A program made the position numbers and the translations under genes. A DNA stretch of 64,000 nt, from NCBI GenBank assembly GCA_040386355.1, contig JAZKFP010000056.1, positions 50,960 to 114,959 of the forward strand, given 5' to 3'. The notes beneath the pieces were generated by a model. The model ran no database searches. It worked only from the letters and a program-made list of their open reading frames with translations, and was not told where the DNA came from. This DNA is from Pseudomonadota bacterium (lineage in GTDB: Bacteria > Pseudomonadota > Gammaproteobacteria > Pseudomonadales > UBA6940). Positions 12,174 through 13,643 of the stretch are shown here, one piece after another; within the stretch, counting starts at the first letter, position 1, and every line of letters starts with the position of its first letter.

Positions 12174-12202
12174 TTGACTTATTAATTATTCGCGAATACT
12201 AT
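12174..12202 (+). promoter_or_regulatory. Sigma70-like promoter upstream of a structured RNA
   Basis: TTGACT (12174-12179), a 17-nt spacer, then TACTAT (12197-12202). Confidence 0.5.
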
Positions 12203-12208
12203 TGAGTC

Positions 12209-12308
12209 GTTCTCGTGGTGAAGATAACAGTTACTTCCGGCTATGAAATGATACTGTTATCGCCCGTTCCCGAAGCATTAAAGAGCTGCGTTTATTCGCG
12301 GCTTTTTT
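12209..12308 (+). ncRNA. About 100-nt structured RNA (candidate Y-RNA-like sRNA or attenuating leader) directly upstream of the TROVE/vWA gene
   Basis: - Perfect 9-bp helix GATAACAGT (12223-12231) / ACTGTTATC (12253-12261) with a 21-nt loop.
- Loop CUUCCGG (12234-12240) can pair with CCCGAAG (12269-12275), 6 of 7 pairs, giving pseudoknot topology.
- Intrinsic terminator GCUGCG-UUUAUU-CGCGGC plus U6 (12285-12308).

The ends are inferred from the promoter and terminator. Confidence 0.5.
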
Positions 12309-12323
12309 ATTATAGGTATTCCT

Positions 12324-13643
12324 ATGCAAATCAATTCAAAAGTTCAGCGCATTTTTACTCATGAAGGCGCAACCGCAAAACATACCCAACCAATTCAAGA
12401 ATTAAAAAGAACCGTACTTTCCTGTTTATTATGGGAATCTGGATTTTATGAATCTGGCGAAAGTATATCTGAAAGAATTAAATCACTTATTTTAAAATGC
12501 GATCCTGTTGATGTTGCAAATTTAGCAATTGAAGCCAGAGAAAAGCATCATCTTCGCCATGTTCCATTATTTATAGTGCGTGAACTATCTCGCACAATCC
12601 AAACAAAAATTAATCTTGCCGATGTTTTATCCAAAATTATCCAAAGACCTGATGAAATTACCGAATTTTTAGCTATGTATTGGCTTGAAGGTAAAAGCCC
12701 AATATCAAAGCAAGTTAAAAAAGGACTTGCGCGAGCGTTTGGAAAATTCAGCGAATATCAACTTGCTAAATACAATCGTGACAACGCAATTAAACTGCGC
12801 GACGTGCTTTTTTTGGTTCATGCAAAGCCAAAAGATGATGAGCAAGCAGAGCTTTGGAAGCGTTTAGCAAATGGAACACTTGAAACGCCCGACACGTGGG
12901 AAGTTGCTTTATCGTCTGGCGCAGATAAAAAAGAAGTATTTGAGCGATTACTCCGTGAGAAAAAACTTGGATATATGGCCCTGCTTCGTAATTTGCGCAA
13001 TATGTCTTTATCTGGTGTAGATCAAGATTTAATTTTTAATGCTTTACGAGATGGCGCTGAAAAATCTAAAGCGCTTCCTTTTCGTTACTTAGCCGCTGCG
13101 CGAGCTGTTCCGCAATGGGAAGAGCAAATCGATGAAGCGATGCAACTTGCCACGAAAAACATAGAAAAATTAAATGGCAAAACTGTACTTTTAATTGATA
13201 TTTCAGGATCAATGAGTGATTCATTATCCAGTAAATCTGATTTACGTCGTATTGATGCGGCCTGCGCATTGGCTGTGCTTGCGCGTGAGTGTTTTAAGGA
13301 TTGCCATGTTGTAACGTTTAGTCACCATGTGATTGGGGTTCCTCCACGAAGAGGAATGGCTCTTGTTGACGCAATTATGAATTCTCAGCAAATGGCTGGA
13401 ACGTATCTTGGTCAATCAGTAGCGGCCATGAATGAACAAGTGCCATATGATCGTTTAATCGTAATCACAGATGAGCAAAGCGCAGATTCTGTTCCTGATC
13501 CATTGAATAATGGTTACATGATTAACGTTGCAACAAATAAAAATGGCGTTGGTTATGGTAAATGGACGCACATTGATGGATTTTCAGAATCAGTTATTCA
13601 GTACATTGCTGAGATTGAATCTGCAAAAGTCGAAGCGCGGTAA
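12324..13643 (+). CDS. TROVE-domain (Ro60/Rsr-like) protein with C-terminal vWA/MIDAS domain (439 aa)
   Basis: The N-terminus FTHEGATAKHTQPIQELKRTVLSCLLWESGFYESGESISERI fits the TROVE N-terminal pattern as I recall it. The C-terminal part has the vWA fold signature VLLIDISGSMSD (DxSxS MIDAS) and ..RLIVITDEQS. Confidence 0.72.
   Translation: MQINSKVQRIFTHEGATAKHTQPIQELKRTVLSCLLWESGFYESGESISERIKSLILKCDPVDVANLAIEAREKHHLRHVPLFIVRELSRTIQTKINLADVLSKIIQRPDEITEFLAMYWLEGKSPISKQVKKGLARAFGKFSEYQLAKYNRDNAIKLRDVLFLVHAKPKDDEQAELWKRLANGTLETPDTWEVALSSGADKKEVFERLLREKKLGYMALLRNLRNMSLSGVDQDLIFNALRDGAEKSKALPFRYLAAARAVPQWEEQIDEAMQLATKNIEKLNGKTVLLIDISGSMSDSLSSKSDLRRIDAACALAVLARECFKDCHVVTFSHHVIGVPPRRGMALVDAIMNSQQMAGTYLGQSVAAMNEQVPYDRLIVITDEQSADSVPDPLNNGYMINVATNKNGVGYGKWTHIDGFSESVIQYIAEIESAKVEAR

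What the first reader, a model, noticed from the sequence alone, without database searches (positions are those of the whole stretch)
12174..13643. Prophage cargo: TROVE (Ro60-like)+vWA protein preceded by a self-contained promoter / structured RNA / terminator unit
**Seen in the protein.** ORF 12324-13643 begins FTHEGATAKH..ELKRTVLSCLLWESGFYESGESISERI. That is the N-terminal pattern I associate with TROVE domains of Ro60/Rsr. It ends in a vWA fold with an intact MIDAS DxSxS (LLIDISGSMSD).

**Seen directly upstream.**
- A TTGACT-17nt-TACTAT promoter.
- A perfect 9-bp helix (12223-12231 / 12253-12261). Its 21-nt loop (CUUCCGG) can pair with CCCGAAG downstream, 6 of 7 pairs, which gives pseudoknot topology.
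- A GCUGCG-UUUAUU-CGCGGC-U6 terminator ending 15 nt before the ATG.

**Established.** Bacterial and phage Ro60 orthologues are usually encoded next to the Y (Yrl) RNAs they bind.

**Inference.** The roughly 100-nt RNA is either a divergent Y-like ligand or a leader/attenuator sensed by the protein. Three things are atypical: the protein is only 439 aa, shorter than the canonical Rsr as I recall it (roughly 500 aa or more). There is no rtcB/rtcA nearby. The unit sits in the lysogenic-conversion slot next to the att-side tRNA. A phage-carried RNA-surveillance or counter-defence module is plausible and, as far as I can tell, uncharacterised in this form.
Basis: partly seen in the sequence, partly recalled or inferred. 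Interest (0 to 1): 0.8.

Follow-up and report, generated by a model that had tools for sequence, protein, structure and literature searches.

The report
Prophage Ro60-like protein with its Y RNA
A prophage carries a ring-shaped Ro60-type RNA-binding protein and, just upstream, a small RNA of a conserved phage family that looks like its binding partner (a "Y RNA"), a pairing already known in bacteria and phages, so this is a clean new example and not a new kind of system.

Summary

**Protein.** ORF 12324-13643 is a TROVE + Ro60-type vWA protein with an intact MIDAS site. Its AlphaFold model superposes over its full length on solved Ro60 rings; the best match is Thermus phage phiLo Ro60 (TM 0.77). 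It is not an Rsr orthologue. It belongs to a very large short (about 435-445 aa) subfamily that is abundant in phages (PHROG 850).

**RNA.** The upstream RNA (core 12209-12277) belongs to a conserved RNA family found on the same strand, mostly within 700 nt upstream of such genes. I counted 377 model matches in 164 related loci.
- Two helices covary: about 90% of cells are paired against 36-53% in slid controls, and 17 of 18 pairs show compensatory changes.
- A model built without the window hits the window exactly once (59 bits).
- The family carries the published YrlA hallmarks, GNCGAA(N)G (here GGUGAAG) and YUAY. In the window it lacks the tRNA-like domain, so it is a minimal hairpin (YrlB-type) Y RNA that Rfam's YrlA model misses.

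**Rejected or weakened.** The proposed pseudoknot is not conserved, because CCCGAAG pairs with the 5' end instead. The promoter recurs in relatives. The terminator occurs only in a few lineages.

**Verdict.** New member of a known kind, of moderate interest.

The parts
12174..12202 (+). Sigma-70-type promoter: TTGACT, 17-nt spacer, TACTAT. The predicted start is near 12209, at the first base of the closing stem.
   Evidence: Read directly in the sequence and listed by the scan at 9 of 12 matches. The match is not significant alone. A promoter of at least 9/12 ending 2-16 nt before the first RNA unit occurs in 16 of 156 first units, 0 of 62 later units and 12 of 2420 random positions. By eye it is present in L005, L006, L008, L010, L029 and L060.
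12209..12277 (+). Core of the Y-like RNA.
- Closing stem P1: 12209-12215 and 12217-12218 pair with 12269-12277, with C12212 and U12216 bulged.
- Conserved 5' motif UGGUGAAG: 12216-12223.
- 9-bp helix P2: 12223-12231 with 12253-12261.
- Conserved UUACUUC: 12231-12237.
- 21-nt loop: 12232-12252.
- Conserved 3' internal-loop strand GCCCGUU: 12262-12268.
   Evidence: - MFE fold.
- Alignment of 35 units.
- Covariation in both helices.
- Model R2, built without the window: 59.2 bits, E about 1e-12, the only hit in the window.
- HMMs built without the window hit 12211-12237 (E 5e-6) and 12251-12277 (E 0.008).
- Motif frequencies.
12281..12308 (+). Intrinsic terminator: stem AAGAGCUGCG/CGCGGCUUUU (core AGCUGCG/CGCGGCU), loop UUUAUU, U6 tract. 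It ends 15 nt before the ATG and would give an RNA of about 100 nt (12209 to about 12308).
   Evidence: Found by the MFE fold and my scan, and it matches the terminator part of Rfam leader models. A hairpin plus U tract sits at the same place (16-21 nt before the ATG), with unrelated sequences, in L005, L029, L060/L061 and L085. Overall it occurs in only 5 of 162 loci, against 1.0% of random 60-nt windows.
12313..12317 (+). Weak ribosome-binding site: UAGGU, with AGG 7 nt before the ATG.
   Evidence: Read from the sequence. Relatives have GGAG-type sites at the same place. No separate promoter fits between the terminator and the ATG, so I infer that the gene is expressed by read-through.
12324..13643 (+). 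Short Ro60-like protein, 439 aa: a TROVE (HEAT-repeat ring) domain plus a Ro60-type vWA domain with MIDAS residues D292, S294, S296, T360 and D383.
   Evidence: - Pfam TROVE 67.5 bits (cut-off 23) and vWA_Ro60 34.4 bits (cut-off 27.7).
- PHROG 850, full length, E 9e-52.
- PDB sequence search: phiLo Ro60 (9l5y/9kop), E 3e-24.
- AlphaFold model: pLDDT 85.9, pTM 0.77.
- Foldseek TM 0.77 to 9kop and 0.72 to D. radiodurans Rsr 2nvo; also Xenopus and human Ro60.
- MIDAS residues invariant in 59-60 homologues.
13632..13666 (+). Terminator-like hairpin GAAGCGCG...CGCGCUUU spanning the stop codon, followed by a T-rich tail. This is the likely 3' end of the unit.
   Evidence: Listed by the terminator scan with 10 pairs, 5 of them G-C. 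Not tested further.

Best explanation
This is a two-part ribonucleoprotein module carried by a prophage: a short Ro60-type ring protein and, immediately upstream on the same strand, one minimal Y-like RNA that is most likely its bound partner.

**Shown**
- The protein has the TROVE + vWA/MIDAS architecture and a predicted Ro60 ring fold.
- The RNA belongs to a conserved, covarying family that accompanies this protein subfamily in phages, prophages and bacterial genomes.
- The family carries the sequence hallmarks reported for YrlA/YrlB RNAs: GNCGAA(N)G near the 5' end (here GGUGAAG) and YUAY (here UUAC).
- The window copy has only a 21-nt loop where YrlA-type copies carry a tRNA-like domain.

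**Inferred**
- Transcription starts at the sigma-70 promoter near 12209.
- Most transcripts stop at the U6 terminator, giving an RNA of about 100 nt. A fraction reads through to translate the protein, so the RNA is made in excess.
- The invariant asymmetric internal loop (UGAA opposite GCCCGUU), flanked by the two covarying helices, is the protein-binding site on the outside of the ring. This is by analogy with the Xenopus Ro60-Y RNA structure and the D. radiodurans Rsr footprint.

**More loosely inferred**
- By analogy with Rsr/Y RNA/PNPase and with phiLo Ro60, the particle acts on host RNA turnover for the phage's benefit, either by gating access to the ring or by engaging a host exoribonuclease such as PNPase.
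- Homologous modules also occur in isolated phages (Xanthomonas, Caulobacter, Brevundimonas jumbo and crAss-like), and the crAss001 gene is an early gene. A role during infection is therefore more likely than classical lysogenic conversion.
For: **Protein**
- Domain, family and structure matches as listed under the ORF part.
- MIDAS residues are invariant.

**RNA family**
- Single-sequence nhmmer from the window gives 64 of 65 hits on the gene strand, almost all within 700 nt upstream of TROVE genes.
- Model R1 gives 142 matches in 80 viral loci, all on the + strand, with 77 of 80 loci positive. It gives 235 matches in 84 further loci, with only L004 on the opposite strand.
- Covariation: 89.4% of cells paired against 36-53% in slid controls, 17 of 18 pairs with double changes, 0 of 500 shuffles as good. 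On 86 units the figure is 90.9% against 39-52%.
- Independence: R2, built without the window, gives one window hit at 59.2 bits; half-HMMs built without the window agree.
- RNA-first test on the first 100 of 120 IMG/VR stretches carrying a 14-base motif: 19 are model-positive and 15 of those hold a TROVE homologue. Of the 15, 13 lie on the same strand 70-625 nt downstream. None of the 81 model-negative stretches holds one.

**Link to known Y RNAs**
- Longer units in the same arrays match Rfam YrlA at 35-56 bits, E 1e-4 to 5e-10.
- The GNCGAAN0-1G and YUAY motifs are described by Chen et al. 2014 (PMC4201824).
- Family motif frequencies: GGYGHAG, and UACUUC in 80 of 86 units.

**Expression signals**
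- Promoters are enriched before first units.
- Positional terminators occur in L005, L029, L060 and L085.

**Function by analogy**
- phiLo Ro60 binds phage-encoded Y-like RNAs and host PNPase (PMC12135203).
- The crAss001 TROVE gene is an early gene (PMC8375218).
Against: - No binding, transcript or phenotype data exist for this locus or its close relatives.
- Rfam finds no Y RNA in the window, even at E <= 10.
- The motif has U where the published motif has C.
- The window RNA lacks the tRNA-like module thought to engage effectors such as PNPase, so a PNPase-tethering role is especially uncertain here.
- The RNAs shown to bind phiLo Ro60 do not match my family model. The model's phiLo matches lie on the other side of that gene, so there is no direct experimental bridge.
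- Three of 18 informative RNA-first loci show units without a TROVE gene in the fetched stretch.
- The terminator is rare in the family and its strength is unknown.
- The promoter match alone is at chance level.
Confidence: 0.8

Rival explanations
1. The structured RNA is mainly a cis-acting leader. The protein binds the Y-like element in its own 5' leader and tunes termination or read-through at the U6 terminator (autoregulatory attenuation). On this view there is no separate trans-acting Y RNA role.
For: - The RNA, the terminator and the gene are contiguous, with only 15 nt between the U tract and the ATG and no room for a second promoter.
- The same layout recurs in L005, L029, L060 and L085.
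- This reading is compatible with the best explanation and need not exclude it.
Against: - Only 5 of 162 related loci have a terminator within 60 nt of the start codon.
- Most loci have arrays of 2-8 units reaching up to 2.5 kb upstream. A few have units downstream of the gene or on the opposite strand. That fits trans-acting RNAs.
- No conserved alternative (antiterminator) pairing was seen. The fold gives independent domains.
Confidence: 0.12
2. The RNA is a pseudoknotted sensor (riboswitch-like). The hairpin loop CUUCCGG pairs with the downstream CCCGAAG.
For: The complementarity (6 of 7) exists in this sequence.
Against: - In 35 homologous units the proposed pairs form in only 49% and 22% of cells. 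Apart from one or two stray double changes they show no compensatory variation.
- The competing pairing of CCCGAAG with the 5' end covaries strongly: all 9 pairs of that stem show double changes.
- The loop's conserved part (UACUUC) is invariant whatever the sequence of the 3' strand.
Confidence: 0.02
3. The module is a lysogenic-conversion or host-benefit cargo. It is expressed in the lysogen to provide Rsr-like RNA quality control under stress, or to exclude other phages, and does not serve the phage's own infection cycle.
For: - It sits at the prophage end, between the tail-fibre genes (opposite strand) and the host tRNA-Met. It follows six small same-strand ORFs and has its own sigma-70-type promoter.
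- Bacterial Rsr aids survival after UV and other stress, per the literature cited in PMC4201824.
Against: - Homologous modules sit inside isolated-phage genomes (Xanthomonas, Caulobacter, Brevundimonas jumbo, crAss-like) with no link to attachment sites.
- The crAss001 TROVE gene is an early gene.
- PADLOC has no defence-system match for the protein or its neighbours, apart from two weak hits on an unrelated ORF.
- No expression data exist either way.
Confidence: 0.2

Closest known systems
Thermus phage phiLo Ro60 with Yrl1/Yrl2 (Hu et al. 2025, NAR, PMC12135203; PDB 9kop, 9l5y)
   Same: - A phage-encoded Ro60 homologue with a HEAT-repeat ring and an inserted vWA domain with a metal site.
- It is the best sequence and structure match among solved structures (E 3e-24, TM 0.77).
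- Small Y-like RNAs are encoded next to the gene.
   Different: - About 25% identity.
- phiLo Ro60 is about 500 aa against 439 aa here.
- The phiLo RNAs were chosen by CGAA motifs in the upstream region and do not match the family model. The model instead matches 3976-4050 (27 bits) just downstream of the phiLo gene.
- PNPase binding is shown for phiLo only.
Bacterial Rsr with YrlA/YrlB (Salmonella Typhimurium, Mycobacterium smegmatis; Chen et al. 2013, 2014, PMC4201824; Rfam RF02553)
   Same: - The RNA is encoded within a few hundred nt of the Ro60 gene on the same strand.
- The 5' and 3' ends pair into a stem.
- A GNCGAA(N)G-type motif lies near the 5' end and YUAY follows the second helix.
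[quoted passage not shown]
- Longer units in the same phage arrays match YrlA.
   Different: - The protein scores 27.6 bits against the 900-bit cut-off of the NCBIfam Rsr equivalog.
- No RNA-repair family matched among the nearest neighbouring ORFs scanned. I ran no dedicated search for rtcBA/rtcR.
- The window RNA has no tRNA-like T, acceptor-like or D arms and no Rfam hit.
- The motif has U in place of C.
Deinococcus radiodurans Rsr, Yrn1/Yrn2 and PNPase (RYPER)
   Same: The ring fold is shared (TM 0.72 to 2nvo). The concept of a Y RNA bound through a conserved bulged stem is the same. Yrn2 is a hairpin-type Y RNA.
   Different: About 16% identity. There is no detectable RNA sequence homology. 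The PNPase tether relies on Y RNA loops that the window RNA lacks.
Metazoan Ro60 with Y RNAs (Xenopus 1yvp, human 9nen)
   Same: The ring + vWA fold is shared (TM 0.63-0.67). The Y RNA is a stem closed by the 5' and 3' ends, with a conserved bulged protein-binding helix.
   Different: The metazoan proteins are about 100 aa longer. Their RNA motif differs (GGUCCGA). Their Y RNAs are made by RNA polymerase III and bind La.

Membership tests
Ro60/TROVE ring proteins | TROVE (HEAT-repeat) domain detected by the family profile | tested here: met
   Pfam PF05731, 67.5 bits against a cut-off of 23, E 1.7e-18.
Ro60/TROVE ring proteins | C-terminal Ro60-type vWA domain with MIDAS residues | tested here: met
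   PF25045, 34.4 bits against a cut-off of 27.7. D292, S294, S296, T360 and D383 are invariant in 59-60 homologues. These correspond to the metal ligands reported for phiLo Ro60.
Ro60/TROVE ring proteins | Closed ring fold | tested here: met
   A predicted model only (pLDDT 85.9, pTM 0.77). It aligns over its full length with solved rings: 9kop TM 0.77, 2nvo 0.72, 1yvp 0.65. I did not inspect ring closure in coordinates.
Rsr (bacterial Ro60 orthologue, NCBIfam NF041674 equivalog) | Score above the equivalog cut-off | tested here: not met
   27.6 bits against a cut-off of 900, matching only the vWA part. The protein belongs instead to PHROG 850.
Bacterial/phage Y RNA (general sense of Chen et al. 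2014) | Encoded within about 4 kb of the Ro60 gene on the same strand | tested here: met
   The core ends 47 nt before the ATG on the same strand. The same holds for 374 of 377 family matches, which lie on the gene strand, nearly all upstream.
Bacterial/phage Y RNA (general sense of Chen et al. 2014) | Stem formed by pairing of the 5' and 3' ends | tested here: met
   For closing stem P1, all 9 pairs show compensatory changes and 85-89% of cells are paired.
Bacterial/phage Y RNA (general sense of Chen et al. 2014) | GNCGAAN0-1G motif near the 5' end | tested here: inconclusive
   The window has GGUGAAG (U for C). In the family, GGTGAAG occurs 22 times and the exact GGCGAAG 16 times in 86 units. 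The G and the second A are invariant.
Bacterial/phage Y RNA (general sense of Chen et al. 2014) | Bound by the Ro60 protein | not testable with these tools
   Needs co-immunoprecipitation or a gel-shift assay.
YrlA (Rfam RF02553) | tRNA-like domain (T arm, acceptor-like stem, D arm) and a score above the gathering threshold | tested here: not met
   No YrlA match in the window at E <= 10 over 3 kb or E <= 1 over 64 kb. The loop is only 21 nt. Positive controls in related loci score 35-56 bits.
Intrinsic (rho-independent) terminator | G+C-rich hairpin followed by a U tract | tested here: met
   A 7-10 bp stem with 5 G-C pairs and U6. Termination activity was not tested.
Known anti-phage defence systems (PADLOC) | Profile match of the protein or its neighbours | tested here: not met
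   No match for the TROVE protein. The only hits are two weak ones on ORF 10153-10746.

The most novel reading that the evidence does not exclude
The prophage encodes only a minimal Y RNA that lacks the tRNA-like effector module. So do at least six related phage loci (L005, L006, L008, L010, L029, L060). [quoted passage not shown] In that reading the particle would not tether PNPase. The RNA would act purely as a lid on the ring, and in this lineage its position in the leader ahead of a terminator would also let the protein set its own expression. More broadly, the conserved two-helix scaffold would be a modular phage platform that displays different inserts, tRNA-like or otherwise, in arrays of up to about eight units.
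Probability: 0.15. Interest if true: 0.55.

Novelty: new member of a known kind. Interest (0 to 1): 0.35.

Why it matters
**Ordinary in kind, useful in detail.** Ro60 proteins encoded next to their Y RNAs are established in bacteria and phages, and a phage Ro60 was solved and shown to bind phage RNAs and host PNPase in 2025. This locus is therefore another instance of that pairing and not a new system.

**What the work adds.** It gives a covariation-supported consensus for a short, widespread phage Y-RNA scaffold:
- P1, then UGGYGHAG, then P2, then UACUUC, then a loop or insert, then P2', then GYYUGUUCC, then P1'.

Rfam's YrlA model misses this scaffold when the tRNA-like insert is absent. The RNA is unannotated in the two isolated-phage records I inspected (Xanthomonas phage 10KY502B and Caulobacter phage CcrColossus). 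In the 10KY502B record an annotated tRNA-Thr largely overlaps a YrlA-like match.

**An experimental handle.** The window offers a compact unit for asking what a phage Ro60 particle does: one promoter, one minimal RNA, one terminator and one gene.

Tried and rejected
- **Rfam scans.** The 3-kb region at E <= 10 and the whole window at E <= 1 gave no Y RNA. The only hits were weak matches to the terminators of leader and sRNA models.
- **Phage DNA similarity.** Megablast of the locus against GenBank phages found nothing. A protein-level search was needed.
- **Pseudoknot.** Loop-to-3'-strand pairing was counted on the alignment and rejected.
- **Extra pairs in the internal loop.** Positions 15-18 against 167-172 showed no covariation.
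- **Defence and naming libraries.** PADLOC and NCBIfam gave no system assignment for the protein or its neighbours.
- **Attachment-site repeat.** The tRNA-Met 3' end occurs only once in the window, so the other prophage end lies outside it.
- **Link to validated RNAs.** I tried to tie the window RNA to phiLo Yrl1/Yrl2. The family model matches the opposite side of the phiLo gene, so there is no bridge.
- **Motif-only scan of IMG/VR.** Most matches to the 14-base motif were chance hits. It became useful only after filtering with the covariance model.
- The 2020 Annual Review on bacterial Ro60 (PMC10870794) is not held.
- **Source organism.** The contig look-up gave no better name than 'MAG: Pseudomonadota bacterium'.
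Full report
**Observation**

- Promoter: TTGACT 12174-12179, 17 nt, TACTAT 12197-12202.
- Helix: a perfect 9-bp helix, 12223-12231 with 12253-12261, around a 21-nt loop.
- Terminator: hairpin AGCUGCG/CGCGGCU with a UUUAUU loop and U6 ending at 12308, 15 nt before the ATG at 12324.
- ORF: 439 aa, 12324-13643, with the quoted peptide strings.

On their own these signals are weak.
- Promoter-like sites are no more frequent than in shuffles (10 against 11.8).
- The tool's terminator scan did not list this hairpin, although the fold and my own scan did.
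- The 103-nt RNA folds only 2.5 sd better than shuffles.

The case therefore rests on comparison with other loci.

**The protein**

- Pfam gives TROVE (67.5 bits, cut-off 23) and the Ro60-specific vWA domain (34.4 bits, cut-off 27.7).
- PHROG 850, 'RNA-binding protein', matches end to end (E 9e-52).
- The NCBIfam equivalog for bacterial Rsr scores only 27.6 bits against a cut-off of 900. This is not an Rsr orthologue.
- More than 8000 database proteins match. The best 120 are 431-461 aa long and 59-67% identical, apart from one 100%-identical MAG copy. The 'short' length is a subfamily trait and not an anomaly.
- An AlphaFold model from 59 homologues is confident (pLDDT 85.9, pTM 0.77). It aligns over its full length with solved Ro60 rings: Thermus phage phiLo Ro60 (9kop, TM 0.77, E 2.5e-19), D. 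radiodurans Rsr (2nvo, TM 0.72), and Xenopus and human Ro60.
- The MIDAS residues D292, S294, S296, T360 and D383 are invariant.
- Homologues at 40-57% identity occur in isolated phages: Xanthomonas phages of about 43 kb, phiCbK-like Caulobacter phages, Brevundimonas jumbo phages, a Microcystis phage and crAss-like phages. They are mostly annotated as hypothetical.

**The RNA belongs to a conserved family**

I fetched 164 loci that encode relatives of the protein: 84 viral contigs and 80 bacterial genomes or MAGs.

- A plain nhmmer search with window 12205-12312 gave 65 weak hits. Of these, 64 were on the gene's strand, and almost all lay within 700 nt upstream of the TROVE start.
- Thirty-five units align cleanly. 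The consensus is: a closing stem P1, U-GG-YG-AAG, a 9-bp helix P2, UUACUUC, a variable loop, the P2 return strand, GCUUGUU-CC, and the P1 return strand.

Counting pairs on this alignment:
- 89.4% of cells are paired, against 36-53% when the partner is slid by 1-3 columns.
- 17 of 18 pairs have changes on both sides.
- No shuffle out of 500 reaches the observed values.

A covariance model from this alignment found the following:
- 142 matches in 80 viral loci, all on the gene strand, with 77 of 80 loci positive.
- 235 matches in the other 84 loci.
- Only L004 carries its units on the opposite strand.

Units come in two sizes:
- about 75 nt, with a median loop of 21 nt;
- about 140-150 nt, with an insert.

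Many loci have arrays, up to about eight units in acidobacterial genomes.

To remove circularity I rebuilt the model from 86 units, none from the window. It hits the window once, at 12205-12282 on the + strand, with 59.2 bits and E about 1e-12, and nowhere else in 64 kb. Sequence-only HMMs built without the window agree. Covariation holds on the 86-unit alignment: 90.9% paired against 39-52%. That alignment is fitted to the model, so it leans towards the structure.

An RNA-first test points the same way.
- A 14-base motif scan of IMG/VR returned 120 stretches.
- I tested the first 100 with the covariance model. 19 were model-positive and the other 81 were not.
- 15 of the 19 model-positive stretches contain a TROVE homologue. 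In 13 of these it lies on the same strand and starts 70-625 nt downstream.
- None of the 81 model-negative stretches contains one.
- Three model-positive stretches (L196, L216, L259) show no TROVE gene in the DNA fetched. One more has too little downstream sequence. This remains unexplained.

**What kind of RNA it is**

Chen et al. 2014 (PMC4201824) described three relevant points:
- Bacterial and phage YrlA RNAs are encoded within 4 kb of Ro60 on the same strand.
- They share a GNCGAAN0-1G motif near the 5' end, the likely Ro60 contact, and a YUAY that begins the variable loop, in addition to a central tRNA-like domain.

The family found here has GGYGHAG (GGTGAAG 22 and GGCGAAG 16 of 86 units) and UACUUC (80 of 86). 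The long units in the same arrays match Rfam YrlA below threshold but well above noise: 35-56 bits, E 1e-4 to 5e-10, in L001-L003, L009, L085 and L165.

The short and long units therefore share one scaffold. The long ones carry the tRNA-like insert in place of the loop.

The window RNA is the short form. It has the most common 5' motif (UGGUGAAG), UUACUUC and a 21-nt loop, and it has no Rfam hit. I file it as a minimal, YrlB-type Y-like RNA and not as YrlA.

Six of the relatives I checked (L005, L006, L008, L010, L029, L060) also have only short units.

The invariant asymmetric internal loop between P1 and P2 shows no covarying pairs. That fits a protein-recognition site.

**The pseudoknot**

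The loop segment CUUCCGG and the downstream CCCGAAG are complementary in this sequence. In relatives the proposed pairs form in only 49% and 22% of cells, with no more than one or two stray double changes among the seven pairs. The same 3' segment covaries with the 5' end as the closing stem. The pseudoknot is rejected.

**Expression signals**

*Promoter.* A sigma-70 promoter of at least 9/12 matches, ending 2-16 nt before P1, is found at:
- 16 of 156 first units;
- 0 of 62 later units;
- 12 of 2420 random positions.

TTGACA-17-TAnnnT is visible directly before the first unit in L005, L006, L008, L010, L029 and L060. The window's promoter ends 6 nt before P1. The promoter call is therefore supported for this lineage.

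*Terminator.* A hairpin plus U tract sits 16-21 nt before the start codon in L005, L029, L060/L061 and L085, with unrelated sequences. That argues for function. Across the family, though, it is rare: 5 of 162 loci against 1.0% of random windows. Most loci probably make the RNAs and the mRNA from one precursor, as reported for M. smegmatis.

*Consequence for the window.* There is no room for a second promoter. The protein must be translated from read-through transcripts, which would give an excess of RNA over mRNA. This is inference.

**Context**

- Host flank: SRP RNA at 1676-1772, a catalase at 6677-8911 and tRNA-Met at 8984-9060.
- Prophage genes: to the right of the tRNA lie six small + strand ORFs, two of them matching PHROGs of unknown function. 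Then come the RNA-TROVE unit; tail-fibre, ejection, portal and terminase genes on the - strand; and replication and recombination genes.
- The prophage runs past the window end, because there is no second copy of the tRNA 3' end.
- The slot description is therefore fair. But the module's presence in many isolated phages, and its early expression in crAss001 (PMC8375218), argue against a role specific to lysogenic conversion.

**Mechanism**

*Shown:* a Ro60-fold protein, and a conserved, covarying RNA that accompanies the gene and carries the known Ro60-contact motifs.

*Inferred by analogy:* the analogues are Xenopus Ro60-Y RNA, the D. radiodurans Rsr footprint, and phiLo Ro60 with its RNAs. 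The RNA would bind the outer face of the ring through the bulged stem and control what reaches the central hole or which host factor is engaged. For phiLo, PNPase binding and attenuation were shown in vitro. Here the RNA lacks the insert thought to reach effectors, so a gating or autoregulatory role is at least as likely as PNPase tethering.

*A gap in the chain:* I could not connect the window RNA to the experimentally tested phiLo RNAs. The family model matches a unit just downstream of the phiLo gene (27.4 bits) and a weaker second one. The tested RNAs were picked from the upstream region.

**Verdict**

The main interpretation, a Y-like ligand of a phage Ro60, is supported. The pseudoknot and the claims of atypicality and novelty are not. 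This is a new member of a known kind. The by-product is a consensus model for a widespread, largely unannotated minimal phage Y RNA, and that is the most useful outcome. Interest 0.35.

Noticed in passing
window 11562-12161 (+): The 199-aa ORF just upstream of the Y-RNA promoter has an N-terminal signal peptide (MFRSILVVLFLACSTPSFAG). Its C-terminal tail is ...VTEPASFGLFGLSLALLCAFNRVRAHKTN, which resembles a PEP-CTERM sorting signal. There is no Pfam, NCBIfam, PHROG or PADLOC hit.
   Followed up: partly
L168 (Thermus phage phiLo) 3976-4050 and 4167-4255: The family model matches two units immediately downstream of the phiLo Ro60 gene (27.4 bits, E 1e-5; and 10.9 bits, E 0.2). They overlap the annotated hypothetical CDS phiLo_25. 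The Yrl1/Yrl2 RNAs tested by Hu et al. 2025 were chosen from the upstream region, so the phage's natural Y RNAs may be different ones.
   Followed up: partly
L165 (Xanthomonas phage 10KY502B) 2331-2445; L166 (Caulobacter phage CcrColossus) 1212-2416: Isolated phages carry unannotated arrays of these units: 3 in 10KY502B and 7 in CcrColossus. The annotated tRNA-Thr of 10KY502B (2331-2398) overlaps a YrlA-like match (2341-2445, 46.7 bits) over most of its length. The tRNA-Gln of CcrColossus overlaps a unit. Some phage 'tRNAs' may therefore be Y-RNA tRNA-like domains.
   Followed up: partly
L087-L162 (mostly Acidobacteriota genomes), up to 2.5 kb upstream of the TROVE gene: There are long arrays of up to about eight Y-like units per locus. 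Many carry inserts of 60-100 nt. The arrays extend to the edge of the fetched flank, so they may be longer.
   Followed up: no
L196 7436-7830, L216 3283-3362, L259 10730-12023: These are model-positive Y-like units (35-63 bits) with no TROVE homologue in the fetched stretch, by tblastn, a subfamily HMM or Pfam. They are either orphan units or have a distant partner gene.
   Followed up: partly
L004 / L179 (IMGVR_UViG_3300012942_000009): This is the only locus where the units lie on the strand opposite to the TROVE gene, in a divergent arrangement.
   Followed up: no
L003 4529-4848: A cluster of four tRNA genes (Gln, Cys, Met, Ile) lies directly downstream of the TROVE gene in one viral contig.
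   Followed up: no
window 13632-13656: A terminator-like hairpin spans the TROVE stop codon. It likely closes the transcription unit before the convergent tail-fibre genes.
   Followed up: no
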